Shown here: in pieces, positions 2,379 to 45,327 of the stretch
Numbering within the stretch: position 1 is the stretch's first letter
How the letters are laid out: each line of letters opens with the position of its first letter
Assembly: GCA_024402005.1 (NCBI GenBank)
Contig: JAKSJV010000001.1
Coordinates: 1-46,956 of the forward strand
Direction: 5' to 3'
DNA from: Bacteroidales bacterium
GTDB lineage: Bacteria > Bacteroidota > Bacteroidia > Bacteroidales > UBA932
Length of the DNA stretch: 46,956 nt
Program-made: the position numbers and the translations under genes
The notes under the pieces: generated by a model
The model's input: only the letters and a program-made list of their open reading frames with translations
Told to the model about the DNA's origin: nothing
The model's database searches: none

Positions 2379-5300
2379 GTGCAAGCATTTTTCGACAATA
2401 TAAACTCGAAGGTCGTGGATGACCTTCGGGTATCCATTAAGAAAGGGACAAAGCTGAGTATTGCATCGGCCTGTTTCTCTATCTATGCCTTCGAGGAGCT
2501 TAAGGCTCAACTCCAGGGTATTGACGAGCTACGTTTCATTTTCACGGCACCTTCTTTCTTGAAGGATGGAGAGTCAAAACAGCGCAGGGAATTCTATATT
2601 CCCAGAATTGACAGGGAGCGCGCACTGTACGGTTCGCAGTTCGAGGTAAAGCTCAGGAATCAACTCACCCAGAAGGCCATAGCCATTGAATGTGCTGATT
2701 GGATTCGTCAGAAGGTCAAATTCAAATCGAACATCACTTCCGCCAATATGCTCGGCTTCATCAATATTGAAAATGATGAGCCTGCCACCTATACCCCTGT
2801 GAACGGATTCACCACTACAGATTTGGGTTGCGAAAAAGGCAACAATATGTTCAATTTCGTGAACAAGGTCGAGGCTGAAAATTCCAGACAATATCTGAGG
2901 ATGTTCAACGAGCTCTGGAACGATGACAAGCAATTTACAGACGTTACTGAACAGATTGTTGAGAGCATCTCCAACGTTTACAAAGAAAACAGTCCGGAAT
3001 TCATTTATTTCGTGGCATTGTACAACATCTTCAGCGAATTTCTTGAGGATATATCCGAAGATGTTCTTCCTAATGAGGCTACAGGTTTTAAGGATAGCCA
3101 AATTTGGAACAAACTCTATGATTTTCAGAAGGACGCTGCACTGGCCATAATCAACAAACTTGAGAAATACAACGGCTGCATCCTTGCAGACAGTGTCGGA
3201 CTTGGAAAGACGTTTACTGCATTGTCAGTTATCAAATACTACGAAAATCGGAACAAGAGTGTCCTGGTCCTCTGCCCGAAGAAACTGAACGAAAACTGGG
3301 TAACATACCGGAGCAACTATATCAATAACCCTATTGCTAAAGATAGACTCCGTTATGATATCTTTTTCCATTCTGACCTTTCCCGCAGCGGAGGAAGCAC
3401 AAATGGAATGGATCTCAGCCACGTCAATTGGGGTAATTATGACCTGGTTGTCATCGACGAATCCCATAACTTTCGAAATGGCGGCAAACTTACAGTAGGA
3501 GAAAATGATGAGGATCCAAAGGAGAACCGCTATCTTAAACTACTTAACAAGGTCATCAGGGCCGGTGTAAAAACAAAAGTGCTGATGCTTTCGGCCACAC
3601 CGGTAAACAACCGATTCAATGATCTGAAGAACCAGCTCCAACTTGCTTACGAGGGTAATGTTGAACAGATGGACAGCAAGTTGAACACATCAAGTTCCCT
3701 TGAAGATATCTTCCGTCAGGCACAGCGTGCATACAATTCGTGGGCTAAGTTGCCAGTTGGTCTCCGCACTACTGACTCTCTTCTTGGAATGCTGAGTTTT
3801 GATTTCTTTGAAGTTCTGGACTCTGTCACTATCGCCCGCAGCCGAAAGCATATCGAGGCATATTACGATACAGAGGCAATCGGAAAGTTCCCAACACGCC
3901 TTCCGCCTATCTCAAGGCGTCCTCATCTGACAGATTTGAAGGATGCAATCAATTATAACGAGATTTTTACGCAATTACAGAAGCTCAATCTTGCCATATA
4001 CACACCTTCGGCATTCATTCTCCCCAGCAAGGCGGCCAAGTACAGACTTGACATAGGCGATGGGAAAAGCGGCCTTTCGCTTGAAGGCCGGGAAATGGGT
4101 ATTCGCAGATTGATGTGCATCCTGATGCTCAAACGTCTGGAGAGTTCTGTCAATTCCTTCAGACTCACACTTGAACGTGTTGAAGCCCTCATCAAGAGTA
4201 CAATTGAACATATTGACAACCACGATGCAGAAATCAACGTTGAGGAGGCTCAAGGCTACGACTTCGACATTGATGATATCGAGAATGAATCATTCATCGG
4301 CACCAAGAAGAACAAGATTCTCCTGGAAGATATGGACTACATTCAGTGGCGCGAATATCTCCAGAAGGATTATGATGAATTGGAGCTGACAAGATTGATG
4401 CTTACTGACATCACCCCTGAACACGACAGCAAACTCCAGCAGCTTATCGTAGACCTCCAGAATAAGTTCGAAAATCCTATCAACGGGCAGAACAAGAAGG
4501 TTATAATTTTCACGGCCTTCTCCGACACCGCTGTTTACCTGTACGACAATCTGGCCGATAAAATTCAGAAGAAATACGGGATTGACACTGCACTCATTAC
4601 CGGTGACGTTGAAGCCCGAAGCAATGCAAAAGGCATAGGGAAACTTGACTTCAACAAAGTGCTGACACTCTTCTCTCCTGTATCCAAGGAGAAAGAGATC
4701 ATATATCCTGATATCAAGAACGAGATTGAGGTCTTGATTGCCACTGACTGCATCAGTGAAGGCCAAAACCTGCAGGACTGTGACTATCTCATCAACTACG
4801 ATATTCACTGGAATCCGGTACGCATTATCCAGCGTTTCGGGCGTATTGACCGTATCGGCTCCAAGAATGATGTCATTCAGCTTGTGAACTTCTGGCCGGA
4901 TATGACCCTCGACGAGTATATAGACCTGAAAGGCCGCGTGGAGGCAAGGATGAAGGTTTCCGTGATGACGAGTACTGGTGATGATAACTTGATTTCTCCA
5001 GAAGAAAAAGGCGATTTGGAGTACCGCAAGGCCCAGCTCAAGAAGCTTCAGGAAGAGGTGGTTGATATTGAGGAAATGAACACTGGCGTAAGCATAATGG
5101 ACTTGGGGCTCAATGAGTTCCGTCTTGACCTGCTGGAGTACATGAAGGCTCACAAGGATGTTGACCATATGCCATATGGTCTACACGCAGTTGTCGGAGC
5201 AAATGAGAATGCAAAACCAGGAGTGATATTCGTTCTGAAGAACAGGGACAATGCCGTGAATATCGACAAAAAGAACAGGTTGCACCCGTTCTATATGGTC

Positions 5301-15699: not shown

Positions 15700-16533
15700 A
15701 TGGAAGATAAGAAACAAGGCTACGTTTATATTCTAACAAATCCTTCATTCAAAGAGGATTGGGTTAAGATTGGGAAAAGTTCTCGTCCAGTAGATGTCCG
15801 TTCAAAAGAATTGGACAACACGGCTGTTCCGCTTCCATTTGAGATCTATGCGACAATGCGCACCGCTAAATATTCCGAGGCGGAAAAGCTTATCCATCGG
15901 TTCATAGAAACTTTAACAAGCCTGCGTATCAGAGACAATCGTGAGTTCTTCAATTTAAAGCCCGAGAAGGCACTTGAAATATTTAGACAAGTGGCTAGCA
16001 TTCTTGACGATGCTGTGGTTGAAGAAGTGCACAATTCGCCTATGAGAAAAATAGAAAATGTCATCGCTCCGAAACCAGAACGCAGAGTTACTAGATCATC
16101 TATCATGAGTGGAGGCAATAGTTGGATGATTCCCGCAAACCCCAACTTCTTCGATGTGGACGGATGCCTGAATAAGTTTGGTATGGTCTATTGGAGGCAA
16201 CATTATAATTTTCAAACTGGTGACATTGTTTATCTCTATGTTTCCAGTCCGGTATGCTCGCTGCGATATAAATGTATAGTTGAAGAACACGACCTGCCTC
16301 ACTCGCCTATTGTTGAAATTGATAAGGAATTCTTCGTAAAACAAAGCGATTTTGCGACGACAAGAAATCATAATCGCTACGTGAAACTTACTCTGCTGGA
16401 CACATCCTATTCTGAAATGCTGAATCTTCACAATCTTTTGGCACACGGTATGAACAGTGCACCACAAGGTTGTATAAATCTTTCGCAAAATAAATTTTCT
16501 CATCTATTGGAATATATTGAGAATAATTTTTGA
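15700..16533 (+). CDS. GIY-YIG (T5orf172-like) nuclease fused to a C-terminal EVE/PUA-like domain
   Basis: GYVYILTN, VKIG, NREFF; C-terminal WMIPANP..FD...W....GDIVYLYVSSP...YKC.V. Confidence 0.75.
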   Translation: MEDKKQGYVYILTNPSFKEDWVKIGKSSRPVDVRSKELDNTAVPLPFEIYATMRTAKYSEAEKLIHRFIETLTSLRIRDNREFFNLKPEKALEIFRQVASILDDAVVEEVHNSPMRKIENVIAPKPERRVTRSSIMSGGNSWMIPANPNFFDVDGCLNKFGMVYWRQHYNFQTGDIVYLYVSSPVCSLRYKCIVEEHDLPHSPIVEIDKEFFVKQSDFATTRNHNRYVKLTLLDTSYSEMLNLHNLLAHGMNSAPQGCINLSQNKFSHLLEYIENNF

Positions 16534-16543
16534 CATGGATTTA

Positions 16544-16669
16544 GCGGTGCGCCCAGCGAGGCAGACCAAATTATTTTTCGAGGCGGGCGGTTTCCAACGA
16601 AGCGAAGCGAAGTGCCAGAAACCGGGGCCCCGGGAGAAAAAAATTTTCGGTCTGCGAGCCAAGCACCGC
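16544..16669. mobile_element. Structured palindromic element, copy A (intergenic)
   Basis: Terminal IR GCGGTGC/GCACCGC, inner stems GCAGACC/GGTCTGC and CGGTTTC/GAAACCG; both 34-nt arms match the copy at 44583-44735 at 33/34. Confidence 0.8.
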
Positions 16670-22448: not shown

Positions 22449-22525
22449 TGGTAGCGGGACCCAGGATTGAACTGGGGACCTCATGATTATGAATCATGCG
22501 CTCTAACCAGCTGAGCTATCCCGCC
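22449..22525 (-). tRNA. tRNA-Met (CAT), probably elongator
   Basis: GGCGGGATAGCTCAGCTGGTTAGAGCGCATGATTCATAATCATGAGGTCCCCAGTTCAATCCTGGGTCCCGCTACCA; cloverleaf with encoded CCA. Confidence 0.93.
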
Positions 22526-22551
22526 ATTGTGCGGACATAGCCGGGATTTTG

Positions 22552-22622
22552 TTGAGATAGACGGATTCGAACCGCCACTAAGAGGACCAGAATCTCTTGT
22601 GCTGCCATTACACCATATCTCA
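22552..22622 (-). tRNA. tRNA-Gln (CTG)
   Basis: TGAGATATGGTGTAATGGCAGCACAAGAGATTCTGGTCCTCTTAGTGGCGGTTCGAATCCGTCTATCTCAA; CCA not encoded. Confidence 0.93.
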
Positions 22623-39434: not shown

Positions 39435-40703
39435 ATGACTCGGATAGAGAGAAAAACATTCAGTTTTCTGGACAGGCTTACGACAAATCCCTGGACGGCG
39501 TTCCCCATCTTCATCCTTGTTGTTTATTTTCTTTTCTGGTGCACGTTTTCCCTGGGGCAGTACCCGATGAGCTGGATACAGTCCGGCGTGACTCTGCTGT
39601 CGGGGTGGCTCAATGCCCTGATCCGTGTCGATTGGCTGCGCGACCTCGTAGTGGACGGTATCCTGGCCGGTGTCGGGGGCGTGCTGGTGTTTCTGCCCAA
39701 TATCATAATACTTTATCTGCTGATATCCATAATGGAGAGTACGGGTTATATGGGACGTGTCGCCTTCATTATGGACAAGATAATGCACCATATGGGCCTT
39801 CACGGCAAGAGTTTCATACCTATGATTATGGGCTTCGGGTGCAACGTGCCGGCGATTCTGGCCTGCCGCGACATCCATCCGCGCAAGAGCCGTCTGGTGA
39901 CGGTGATGATAATACCGTTTATGTCCTGCAGCGGGCGTCTGCCGGTGTATCTGCTGCTGGTGGCGGCGTTCTTCCCGGAGCACGGGCCTGTTATTTTGCT
40001 GGGGCTCTATGCTTTGGGGCTGGTGCTGGCGGTGATTGCTGCAAAGATTATTTCTATGATTCTGCCGGGTATTTCGGCTCACGACCACGTGGAGCAGAAA
40101 CCGTATATGATGCCTCAGTGGAATTATGTTTTCGGCAATACCTTCATTCAGGTCAAGGAGTATTTGCAGAAGTTGGCCGGTCCGATTCTGGCCTTTTCTG
40201 TGGCCCTGTGGGTGTTGGGGTATTTCCCGCGTGCGGAGGCTTCCGGCGGTGATGCGGCTGTGGCTCCCGCGATGTCTGCGGCGGCCGTGGATGCGGCTGT
40301 GGCTCCCGCGATGTCTGCGGCGGTGCAGAAGGAACAGTCCTTTATCGGCAGGATAGGGCACATAATCAGCCCCGTGCTGGAGCCGATAGGGATGAATTGG
40401 AAGGACGGCGTGGCTATAATTGGCGGCGTTGGTGCGAAAGAGTTGATAGTCAGTACTTTGGGCGTGATGTACAGCGATGACGGTCCCACGCTTCAGGATG
40501 CTTTGAGAGGCAGTCATACTGCCGCGGGTGCCCTGGCATTTATGGTATTCGTACTGCTGTATTTCCCCTGTGTCGGGACTTTCGTGGCGCTGAAACACAC
40601 TACGGACAGCTGGGGCTGGACTTTGTTCGGTGCCGTGAACAGCATTATGGTTGCCTGGGTGATGGCGTTTGTGGTATTCCGGGTATTCACTTTGGTTCTT
40701 TGA
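39435..40703 (+). CDS. FeoB membrane domain only (no GTPase domain)
   Basis: GVGGVLVFLPNI, ESTGYMGR, GFGCNVPA, PFMSCSGRLP, AKELIVSTL, LYFPCV; no P-loop; promoter TAAATTTG at 39347-39354. Confidence 0.85.
   Translation: MTRIERKTFSFLDRLTTNPWTAFPIFILVVYFLFWCTFSLGQYPMSWIQSGVTLLSGWLNALIRVDWLRDLVVDGILAGVGGVLVFLPNIIILYLLISIMESTGYMGRVAFIMDKIMHHMGLHGKSFIPMIMGFGCNVPAILACRDIHPRKSRLVTVMIIPFMSCSGRLPVYLLLVAAFFPEHGPVILLGLYALGLVLAVIAAKIISMILPGISAHDHVEQKPYMMPQWNYVFGNTFIQVKEYLQKLAGPILAFSVALWVLGYFPRAEASGGDAAVAPAMSAAAVDAAVAPAMSAAVQKEQSFIGRIGHIISPVLEPIGMNWKDGVAIIGGVGAKELIVSTLGVMYSDDGPTLQDALRGSHTAAGALAFMVFVLLYFPCVGTFVALKHTTDSWGWTLFGAVNSIMVAWVMAFVVFRVFTLVL
40251..40323 (+). repeat. 39-bp-period tandem duplication in the FeoB-like gene
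   Basis: Identical 34-mer GATGCGGCTGTGGCTCCCGCGATGTCTGCGGCGG at 40251 and 40290. Confidence 0.9.
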
Positions 40704-44157: not shown

Positions 44158-45327
44158 TTATTTTTGGCGGTATTTGGTGTTTTCTTCCAGCATTCCGAGA
44201 TAGGAATTGTAGCGGTCGGCGCTGATGCGGCCTTCATCCACGGCCTTTTTCACCGCACAGCCAGGCTCGTGGGTATGGGTGCAGGGGGTGAAGCGGCAGC
44301 CCTGGCTTTCCCGTAGCATTTCGGGGAAATACAGGGCGATTTCTTCGGGCTGGAGGTCCAGCAGGCCGAAACTCCTGATGCCTGGGGTGTCTATGATGAA
44401 GCCTCCGCTCTGCAGCGGGTACATTTCGTAAAAAGTCGTGGTGTGTCTGCCTTGCAGGTGGCTGAGTGATATCTGCGCGGTTTTCGGGTTGAGGCTCGGG
44501 TCCAACGCCTTTATGAGCGACGATTTCCCCACTCCGGACACTCCCGACAACAGGTTGATTCCGGTCTCAAGACTGGACTCACCCGGTGCGTCAGCGAGGC
44601 AGACCAAACTATTTTTCGAGGCGGGACCGACGGGCTTAAGCCCTGCTGCTCGGGCCGAAAGCATCAAAATGCTTTCTGTGGACCCACTCGCGACCCGGGA
44701 GAAAAAAGTTTTCGGTCTGCGAGCCAAAGCGCCGGTGCAATCGGGGTTTTGACACCCTGTGGCTGTGTAGATGAAGCTCCCGGCGAGAGCCTGGCGCAGG
44801 GCGTCGATGCCCTCGCCTGTTTTGGCGGAAGTTTCGATTATGTCATAGCCCGCAAGACGGCCGTAAGTGTCGTGGAATGCGGCAATCAGGTCATCTGCGC
44901 CTGCCTTGCGCAGCAGGTCGATCTTGTTCAGGACTATGGTGACGTGCACGCCGTACACCTCGCAGGTCACCAGCAGACGGTCCAAGAAAGGCAGTTTCAC
45001 TTCGGGAAAGGCAAGTGTCACCACCACGAAGGCCCTGTCTATGTTCGACGCTATGATGTGGGCCTCGCGGCTCAGGTTGGTGCTTTTGCGTATCACGTAG
45101 TTGCGGCGCGGAAGCACCTCGGTGATTATCGCTGGATTGGATTCTGATACGTCGTCAGGCACTTCGCAAAGCACATTGTCACCAACGGCGACAGGGTTGG
45201 TCGCAGTAGATTTCTGCAGACGGACCTTGCCCCGTATCACCGCTGGAAACAGTTCCCACGCGGGCAGTATGCTCAAAAGATAATGGCTGCCCGTATGTTT
45301 TACTACTGTCGCCTGAACGTTTTTCAT
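44158..45327 (-). CDS. rsgA: Ribosome small subunit-dependent GTPase A with ~72-aa in-frame insertion
   Basis: OB fold with VGD, NKID (G4), TSA (G5), GVSGVGKS (G1), GRHTT, DTPG, CRFTPCTHTHEPGC zinc site. Confidence 0.95.
   Translation of the reverse strand: MKNVQATVVKHTGSHYLLSILPAWELFPAVIRGKVRLQKSTATNPVAVGDNVLCEVPDDVSESNPAIITEVLPRRNYVIRKSTNLSREAHIIASNIDRAFVVVTLAFPEVKLPFLDRLLVTCEVYGVHVTIVLNKIDLLRKAGADDLIAAFHDTYGRLAGYDIIETSAKTGEGIDALRQALAGSFIYTATGCQNPDCTGALARRPKTFFSRVASGSTESILMLSARAAGLKPVGPASKNSLVCLADAPGESSLETGINLLSGVSGVGKSSLIKALDPSLNPKTAQISLSHLQGRHTTTFYEMYPLQSGGFIIDTPGIRSFGLLDLQPEEIALYFPEMLRESQGCRFTPCTHTHEPGCAVKKAVDEGRISADRYNSYLGMLEENTKYRQK
44583..44735. mobile_element. Structured palindromic element, copy B (inside rsgA)
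   Basis: Arms 44592-44625 and 44694-44727 match copy A at 33/34 each; different centre with hairpins GGGC-TTAA-GCCC and GAAAGCAT-CAAA-ATGCTTTC. Confidence 0.85.

What the first reader, a model, noticed from the sequence alone, without database searches (positions are those of the whole stretch)
16544..16669. Dispersed structured element with compensatory substitutions and a swappable centre
Seen: this 126-nt intergenic hairpin recurs at 44583-44735. Each 34-nt arm differs at one position, and those two positions pair with each other (T16571:A16643 vs C44609:G44708). The closing pair also covaries (G16544:C16669 vs C44583:G44735) and one T:A becomes T:G. Purine-rich internal loops are conserved, but the centres are unrelated: CGAAG repeats containing GCGAAGC in copy A, two other hairpins in copy B. 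Copy A is sense and copy B antisense to the local transcript. Inference: selection acts on a single-stranded fold of the + strand regardless of transcription direction. That fits a non-autonomous REP/MITE-like ssDNA element or an unrecognised structured RNA family. No cognate transposase is in the window.
Basis: partly seen in the sequence, partly recalled or inferred. Interest (0 to 1): 0.85.

Follow-up and report, generated by a model that had tools for sequence, protein, structure and literature searches.

The report
Flipping modular hairpins inside housekeeping genes
A family of 100-240-base hairpin-shaped DNA repeats in a gut Bacteroidales genome sits both between genes and in frame inside housekeeping genes such as rsgA, where close strains show it missing, shortened, flipped or carrying a different centre; it is likely a selfish element that folds as single-stranded DNA, like REP and Rickettsia palindromic repeats, and its mobilising enzyme is not identified.

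Summary
The two copies are real, but copy B is not intergenic. It lies in a 73-codon in-frame insertion in rsgA, bounded by CCGG. The genome (1.58 Mb, 72% complete) holds 16 loci of this rod element, 7 in frame in housekeeping genes, within a network of about 32 related hairpin loci. The arms are the conserved core; the centre is optional cargo (at least four kinds, or none). Close strains show empty, trimmed, flipped and cargo-swapped alleles at the same sites (rsgA, truB, wbqC, spoU). The outermost stem is site-specific, so the 'covarying closing pair' is not a homologous pair. Template switching could make stem covariation and flips without selection; the invariant purine loops and GCGN(N)AGC DNA mini-hairpin motifs (20 on one strand, 2 on the other) favour an ssDNA element over an RNA. 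Best reading: a non-autonomous REP/RPE-like element, likely spread by an HUH (Y1) transposase and remodelled at replication. Two of three such genes in the genome lie near one cargo module, but cognate status is not shown. No Rfam family matches. New variant of a known kind.

The parts
16544..16669 (+). Copy A of the rod element, intergenic, 10 nt after the stop of a T5orf172/MUG113-domain gene and 42 nt before the next start; sense to both
16544..16550 (+). Copy A site-specific outer stem, 5' arm (pairs with 16663-16669, 7 bp)
16554..16587 (+). Copy A conserved left arm (GC-GAG loop, 7-bp helix, A/T helix, GAGG loop, CGGG)
16588..16628 (+). Copy A cargo 'a'; holds the DNA mini-hairpin motif GCGAAGC at 16602-16608
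16629..16662 (+). Copy A conserved right arm
16663..16669 (+). Copy A site-specific outer stem, 3' arm
15700..16533 (+). Upstream neighbour of copy A: T5orf172/MUG113 (GIY-YIG-like) protein in a defence island; not shown to be linked to the element
44158..45327 (-). rsgA (ribosome small subunit-dependent GTPase A), 389 aa, carrying the insertion in frame at residues about 184-256
44561..44564 (.). CCGG at one end of the rsgA insertion; junction of the flipped alleles
44565..44783 (+). Whole rsgA insertion, 219 nt = 73 codons, including one CCGG copy (44780-44783); absent from the 316-aa allele P0007
44583..44735 (+). Copy B of the rod element (antisense to rsgA); begins with the mini-hairpin motif GCGTCAGC at 44588-44595
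44592..44625 (+). Copy B conserved left arm
44626..44693 (+). Copy B cargo 'b': a two-hairpin module that also occurs alone or in other carriers, in 21 of 400 genus genomes
44694..44727 (+). Copy B conserved right arm
44737..44779 (+). Right end of a second carrier ('type II') in which copy B is nested; same end in frame in folC, rsmG and an FAD oxidoreductase elsewhere in the genome

Best explanation
This is a multi-copy hairpin repeat found between genes and in frame inside genes, likely a non-autonomous selfish element that is recognised as folded single-stranded DNA, likely spread in trans by an HUH (Y1, TnpA-REP-like) transposase and likely remodelled afterwards by replication template switching. 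Shown: a conserved rod of two arms with invariant purine-rich internal loops; cargo that can be a, a', b, a'+b, c or absent; an outer stem that is different at each site; gain, loss, trimming, flipping and cargo exchange at the same site among close strains; open reading frames across every intragenic copy except one. Inferred steps: (1) one strand (+ here) extrudes as a rod when DNA is single-stranded; (2) a transposase reads its unpaired loops and moves it, with a preference for hairpins or short palindromes as targets, including other elements, which gives nested mosaics; (3) polymerase template switching on the extruded hairpin perfects the flanks into a site-specific stem and inverts the enclosed element; (4) recombination between the shared arms swaps or deletes cargo; (5) selection keeps only copies that preserve the frame in tolerant surface loops or sit just behind stop codons. 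The inserted peptide is predicted to be a disordered passenger with no function of its own.
For: Copy number and mosaic build: 13 core matches plus 3 partial or other-cargo loci; 32 of 36 module clusters at E<0.001. In frame in rsgA, truB, the murG-murC linker, folC, rnr, glycerate kinase and wbqC; type II alone in rsmG and an FAD oxidoreductase. RsgA alleles of 316, 333, 333, 360, 367, 389, 393 and 393 aa with 93-100% identical flanks. Opposite-strand joints exactly at CCGG in 4 of 4 runs from 4 studies and a flipped, still in-frame allele in G161. At spoU-DUF362, G000 and G307 share the outer stem but have the element flipped and a different cargo. Empty truB alleles are themselves 7-bp hairpins whose loop is replaced by the element, +36 codons. 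Outer stems: median 7.5 bp, 9 of 14 at least 7 bp, versus median 4 and 16 of 182 for cross-copy pairs. Inner helix 96.6% paired, 5 of 18 pairs changed on both sides; cargo b 6 of 14 pairs. GCGNAGC/GCGNNAGC 20 on + versus 2 on -, about 2 expected; these motifs are far more stable in DNA than RNA (PMC13037366, passages). Conserved mismatches are what TnpA-REP and IS200/IS605 transposases read (PMC8266576, passages). Two of the three Y1 genes in the genome have cargo b within about 500 nt, one on both sides in inverted orientation. AlphaFold2 pLDDT <50 for RsgA 184-253 between a helix and the P-loop strand.
Against: No Y1 gene was found beside a complete rod element; the nearest flanks of these genes are other repeat units, a 91%-identical Y1 gene in G146 has no cargo b beside it, only 1 of 44 other Y1 loci had it, and the enrichment across genomes is modest (3 of 34 cargo-b loci versus 1 of 81 control loci). 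No GTAG foot; CGTC in only 6 of 14 copies. Direct repeats at rsgA (4 bp) and truB (7-8 bp) are not expected from peel-and-paste transposition (established knowledge, recalled), and the 'empty' alleles may be later deletions rather than ancestral sites. The 20:2 motif count is over related copies (about 6-7 independent positions). Folding energies hardly separate strands or DNA from RNA, and loops of cargo a' (GGAA, GGCA, GAAA, TTCG) would also suit RNA. A replication-strand bias could not be measured.
Confidence: 0.6

Rival explanations
1. Transposase-free spread: the hairpins copy themselves by replication or repair accidents (template switching and microhomology-mediated invasion of other hairpins), with no dedicated enzyme.
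For: At truB the element's left end overlaps the host hairpin arm by 6-7 identical bases in both orientations; flips end at palindromes; even the 4-nt loop of the empty truB hairpin occurs in both orientations; no enzyme sits beside a complete rod.
Against: Template switching should erase the asymmetric loops, yet GAG, GAGG and GGA are invariant in 14 of 14 aligned copies and the GA/GGA core persists in cargo-less relatives in 4 other genomes; the lineage-specific burst (16 loci here, core pattern in 2 of 185,579 other genomes) fits an enzyme-driven expansion.
Confidence: 0.17
2. A structured RNA element (terminator, mRNA stabiliser or small RNA) kept for the host's benefit.
For: Covariation; 10 of 12 intergenic copies lie within 17 nt of a stop codon; GNRA- and UUCG-type loops in cargo a'.
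Against: The same site carries either orientation or nothing in close strains; 6 of 7 in-gene copies are antisense, so the conserved strand is not in the mRNA; non-GNRA loops GTCA, GACA, GCCA, GGTA and GNA triloops are DNA-type (PMC13037366); no Rfam family. Secondary effects on mRNA are still possible.
Confidence: 0.1
3. A MITE moved by a DDE transposase, with CCGG as target-site duplication.
For: The rsgA insertion is bounded by a 4-bp direct repeat and the empty allele has one copy; truB shows a 7-8-bp direct repeat.
Against: No terminal inverted repeat shared between loci; duplication length is not constant; at wbqC about 5 host codons are replaced rather than duplicated; strong one-strand motif bias. 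ISfinder could not be searched.
Confidence: 0.08
4. A small self-splicing intron or other RNA-excised insert.
For: It interrupts essential genes and is highly structured.
Against: Both orientations occur in frame at one site; all RsgA alleles keep the frame; no intron family in Rfam; no reverse transcriptase found in the 72%-complete genome. No RNA reads were laid.
Confidence: 0.02

Closest known systems
Rickettsia palindromic elements (RPE; as summarised in PMC10969869 and PMC3733652, passages read; the original papers were not held)
   Same: About 100-150-nt palindromic repeats, many in frame inside unrelated housekeeping genes (truB is hit in both), no known mobiliser.
   Different: Other phylum and a free-living gut lineage; no single conserved peptide (both strands, at least three frames); exchangeable cargo and nesting; polymorphic flips at one site; site-specific outer stem. 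No sequence comparison with RPEs was run.
CGTC- and GTAG-tagged REPs, REPINs/BIMEs and REPtrons (PMC3733652, PMC8266576, passages)
   Same: Dispersed imperfect hairpins just downstream of stop codons, some intragenic, some inserted inside other palindromes; conserved bulges; one-strand asymmetry; Y1 genes nearby; CGTC at the 5' end and CCA after the stem in 6 of 14 copies each.
   Different: Rod of about 25 bp plus cargo rather than an 8-9-bp stem with a 4-5-nt loop; no invariant tetranucleotide foot; not shown to flank a cognate transposase as the proximal repeat.
TnpA-Y1 class 2 HUH proteins, subclass 2.1-like long forms with a C-terminal HTH, and subclass 2.6 of Bacteroidetes (PMC6006769, passages)
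   Same: The genome's three 295-307-aa proteins have an NH-x-H motif and Y-x-x-x-N-(P/G); weak hits to PF01797 and NF047646.
   Different: Below the NCBIfam cut-off; subclass not assigned by tree; the paper found no REP-like repeats beside 2.1/2.3 genes, whereas 27 of 43 loci here have matching repeats on both sides.
Template-switch homogenisation and spacer inversion at short inverted repeats (PMC8604942, abstract)
   Same: Explains perfected arms, apparent compensatory changes and in-place inversion.
   Different: A mutational process, not an element; does not explain copy number or conserved loops.

Membership tests
Rickettsia palindromic elements (RPE) | Palindromic repeat of roughly 100-150 nt in many copies | tested here: met
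Rickettsia palindromic elements (RPE) | Frequent in-frame insertion in unrelated conserved genes | tested here: met
   7 of 16 rod loci, plus 2 type II loci
Rickettsia palindromic elements (RPE) | Each family encodes a conserved peptide | tested here: not met
   both strands and at least three frames are used
Rickettsia palindromic elements (RPE) | Sequence homology to RPE-1 to RPE-10 | not tested
   no RPE sequences were fetched; the core pattern matched only 2 Bacteroidales genomes among 185,579
GTAG REP / REPtron | GTAG or GTGG foot 0-2 nt 5' of a 7-20-bp stem | tested here: not met
   left ends of 14 copies
GTAG REP / REPtron | Repeat flanks its cognate tnpA-REP gene | tested here: inconclusive
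   cargo b lies beside 2 of 3 own Y1 genes but outside other, closer repeats; no complete rod beside any
GTAG REP / REPtron | Strand-specific cleavage of the folded single strand by the transposase | not testable with these tools
   needs biochemistry
CGTC REP | Terminal CGTC (or TGTC, CCTC) and CCA tail | tested here: inconclusive
   CGTC in 6 of 14, CCA in 6 of 14
CGTC REP | 8-9-bp stem starting with AT, loop of 4-5 nt | tested here: not met
   stem starts with GC, about 25 bp, centre 15-102 nt
MITE (DDE-type) | Terminal inverted repeats conserved across copies | tested here: not met
   outer stems differ at every site
MITE (DDE-type) | Target-site duplication of constant length | tested here: inconclusive
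   4 bp at rsgA, 7-8 bp at truB, replacement at wbqC; only three sites had empty alleles
MITE (DDE-type) | Ends match an autonomous IS | not testable with these tools
   no ISfinder; no match in plasmid, phage or IMG/VR collections
Known structured RNA (Rfam 15) | Match above a family's gathering score | tested here: not met
   only two tRNAs in the window; best weak hit E 0.083 to a eukaryotic family
Known structured RNA (Rfam 15) | Discrete stranded transcript | not tested

The most novel reading that the evidence does not exclude
The conserved arms are a carrier: a single-stranded DNA mini-transposon that targets hairpin loops, captures and swaps other hairpin modules, and in inverted pairs moves host DNA (the duplicated 5' 750 nt of truB is bracketed by two inverted rods). 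Its mobiliser would be the widespread long HUH family (117 of 151 genus genomes) for which no repeat substrate has been described, making this a modular, protein-loop-building transposition system distinct from GTAG REPtrons.
Probability: 0.2. Interest if true: 0.75.

Novelty: new variant of a known kind. Interest (0 to 1): 0.5.

Why it matters
How RPE-type and CGTC-type palindromes spread has been open for two decades because no mobiliser and few filled/empty pairs are known. Here one site in one gene shows eight alleles (empty, trimmed, flipped, cargo-swapped) in a living population, with candidate HUH enzymes in the same genome, so the mechanism can be tested on oligonucleotides. It also shows 36-73-residue loops entering essential proteins (RsgA, TruB, FolC, MurG-MurC) on a strain time scale, and it warns that compensatory changes in dispersed hairpins need not mean a functional RNA. 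The importance is tempered: no host function is evident, the organism is uncultured, and unchecked notes of this scan report the same general phenomenon in other Bacteroidales.

Tried and rejected
Rfam at gathering and E-value thresholds: nothing relevant. Plasmid, phage and IMG/VR searches: no match. JGI metagenomes: 0 matches for the rod core, 2 for cargo b. IS110 (PF01548) and reverse transcriptase (PF00078) not found in the 72%-complete genome; the one GIY-YIG (PF01541) hit is a 601-aa frame on C84, a contig with no element in the census. Replication-strand bias: skew was unimodal and confounded by codon use, so no call. RNA versus DNA folding energies: not discriminating (DNA + strand lower in 10 of 12, RNA in 7 of 12). 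Empty site for copy A: no orthologous locus in 400 genomes, only WYL-gene starts. Outer-stem covariation counted on the MAFFT alignment failed by register (30% paired) and was redone by anchors. A profile of the inserted peptide against 1.84 billion representatives returned 2 unrelated tandem-repeat proteins. A loose core pattern hit 18 of 400 genomes against 10 for the reversed control; of 9 loci inspected, 5 were true rods, 1 (G247) a more distant repeat with no transposase evident among the ORFs listed, 3 chance. PDB search for the Y1 protein: no hit. The T5orf172 gene beside copy A was considered as mobiliser and set aside: no such neighbour at the other loci scanned. Assembly artefact was rejected for rsgA because independent assemblies carry related inserts; it is not excluded for the truB duplication. 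The original RPE paper was not held. Supplements of PMC3733652 and PMC6006769 (lists of REP consensus sequences and loci) were not read and may bear on the membership tests.

Full report
Observation. The two 34-nt arms recur at 97% identity, far beyond chance (E about 1e-9 to 1e-10), and both copies fold into the same rod with z-scores of -2.57 and -3.28. Rfam finds only two tRNAs in the window and nothing credible at loose thresholds. In all 23 of 24 same-genus genomes with a match, the alignment skips residues about 185-250. The insertion runs from 44565 to 44783, 219 nt or 73 codons, with CCGG at both ends. AlphaFold2 models it as disordered (pLDDT <50, residues 184-253) between a helix and the P-loop strand.

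Organism and range. The only other genomes holding the core pattern, 2 of 185,579, are titled horse-faeces Bacteroidales MAGs, and a close WbqC homologue is named from Candidatus Hennigimonas equi. Placement in the large genus Cryptobacteroides is my inference. Those two contigs are closer to this genome (87% and 93-96%) than other loci of their own bins (70-83% and 69-74%), so they may be mis-binned or transferred, and the full rod may be confined to this species group. Parts are wider spread: cargo b is in 21 of 400 genus genomes, and a cargo-less rod with the same loops is in 4 others, three times in frame in the same truB loop.

Anatomy. The genome holds 13 matches to the rod core, two more cut by contig ends and one with outer arms only: 16 loci. 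With related modules, 32 of 36 clusters pass E<0.001. The constant part is two arms forming about 25 bp with purine-rich internal loops; GAG, GAGG and GGA are invariant in 14 of 14 aligned copies. The centre is 15-102 nt and can be a, a', b, a'+b, c or a short loop. A second carrier (type II) uses the same cargo b, and the two carriers nest or abut in rsgA and folC. The main arm helix is 96.6% paired with 5 of 18 pairs changed on both sides, covariation score 0.127 against 0.076 for shuffles (0 of 500); a +2 slide scores as high (0.131) and copies are related, so this is supportive, not decisive. Cargo b shows two-sided changes in 6 of 14 pairs over 26 copies. The outermost stem is different at every site yet complementary: median 7.5 bp, 9 of 14 at least 7 bp, against median 4 and 16 of 182 for left and right flanks taken from different copies.

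Where copies sit. Seven of 16 rods are in frame in genes named by Pfam: rsgA, truB, the murG-murC linker, folC, RNase R, glycerate kinase and wbqC (the last three frames run to a contig end). One ends a truncated second truB. Type II alone is in frame in rsmG and an FAD-dependent oxidoreductase. Six of the seven are antisense to the gene. Of 12 intergenic copies checked (rods, type II, cargo b), 10 lie within 17 nt of a stop codon.

Turnover at single sites. RsgA proteins with 93-100% identical flanks come in lengths 316 (empty), 333, 333, 360 (cargo deleted), 367, 389, 393 and 393, five of them flipped; a protein 73-79% identical has a type II insert at the same place. Contigs from 4 of 4 runs in 4 studies show an opposite-strand joint exactly at CCGG, and G161 has the flipped allele in frame. 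Between spoU and a DUF362 gene, this genome and G307 share flanks (92-95%) and an outer stem, but the rod is flipped and the cargo differs: direct support for the 'swappable centre'. Empty truB alleles (one contig each in two runs, and 278-aa proteins) are small hairpins whose loop is replaced by the element, adding 36 codons, and the element's left end overlaps the host arm by 6-7 bases. At wbqC, four empty proteins match the family pattern; in the filled allele the downstream arm of a 17-bp stem resembles host codons while the upstream arm replaces them (read from proteins, so codons are inferred). Whether the empty alleles are ancestral or later deletions is not settled: the empty RsgA junction is one residue shorter than in most relatives.

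DNA or RNA. The motifs GCGNAGC and GCGNNAGC occur 20 times on the element strand and twice on the other, about 2 expected; the copies are related, so this is about 6-7 independent positions. These are DNA mini-hairpins, much less stable as RNA (PMC13037366, passages), and several loops are not GNRA. With flips at one site and mostly antisense intragenic copies, this favours folded single-stranded DNA. Against: energies do not separate the cases, cargo a' has RNA-friendly loops, and no RNA reads were examined. Template switching homogenises arms and inverts spacers (PMC8604942, abstract), so stem covariation alone does not show selection; the unerased asymmetric loops do point to a recognised structure, as conserved bulges do in E. 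coli REPs (PMC8266576, passages).

Mobiliser. No IS110 recombinase or reverse transcriptase was found in the incomplete genome. It has three Y1/HUH genes of 295-307 aa with weak hits to PF01797 and NF047646; the family is in 117 of 151 genus genomes. One is flanked on both sides by inverted cargo b and another has half of cargo b downstream. But their nearest flanks are other repeats, a 91%-identical gene in G146 lacks cargo b, only 1 of 44 other Y1 loci has it, and 3 of 34 cargo-b loci against 1 of 81 control loci hold such a gene. They are candidates, not shown to be cognate.

Comparison and novelty. It works like RPEs (PMC10969869, passages) and like REPs that sit behind stop codons, inside genes and inside other palindromes (PMC3733652, passages), but fails membership on a conserved peptide, the GTAG foot, CGTC stem geometry and shared terminal repeats. 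Five full-text searches found no description of such elements in Bacteroidales; the library lacks most subscription papers. Unchecked notes of this scan describe similar in-frame, flipping hairpins in other Bacteroidales and host-derived stems in Patescibacteria; none matched this sequence and they are not evidence. Verdict: real, a new variant of a known kind; the distinctive points are exchangeable cargo, nesting and a full allele series at single sites. Interest 0.5.

Noticed in passing
G000 C138:2734-2825 and 3873-3964; loci L144-L188: The long Y1/HUH genes of this genus are often flanked on both sides by their own genome-specific arrays of short palindromic units (27 of 43 loci with matching flanks at E<=0.01, 24 direct and 3 inverted). 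PMC6006769 reported no REP-like repeats beside the long subclasses; this may be an undescribed REPtron type.
   Followed up: partly
L068:1524-3336 (G000 C2:9223-11035): Tandem duplication of truB: a truncated copy is bracketed by two inverted rods that share the same right-end variant; one other strain lacks the whole block. Could be element-mediated duplication or a two-strain assembly.
   Followed up: partly
TruB proteins P0195-P0242: The same TruB loop carries several unrelated inserted peptides across relatives, which look hairpin-derived: a hot spot for many repeat families.
   Followed up: partly
window 467-20718: Defence island: AbiEii, SNF2 helicase, DUF4391, type III restriction-modification, NERD nuclease, T5orf172, WYL and GIY-YIG genes, ahead of two tRNAs at 22452-22622. 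Copy A sits inside it.
   Followed up: no
L068:8728-11370; L086, L088: murG and murC are one open frame in G000, G161 and G247 but separate in G307, G271 and G004; the rod sits in the linker only in G000.
   Followed up: partly
G000 C2:9143, C8:3445, C64:12159, C72:12172, C99:1367, C107:6091, C145:3627; C72:15150, C109:8925, C115:4786; C3:1, C67:10217, C108:9536; C65:212, C75:7729, C101:7229, C116:5231: At least four further families of dispersed hairpin repeats in this genome, some with a conserved loop and variable stems, one beside tRNA genes.
   Followed up: no
window 40251-40323: A 39-nt tandem duplication (13 codons) inside overlapping long ORFs.
   Followed up: no
L111 (G161:C46), L112 and L116 (G307:C13): These contigs are closer to G000 than the rest of their bins: possible mis-binning or recent transfer.
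   Followed up: partly
L212, L228, L230, L232 (G247:C2): Four identical copies of a larger branched repeat with the same inner T-tract/GA core on one contig; those in L212 lie between genes for small predicted lipoproteins.
   Followed up: partly
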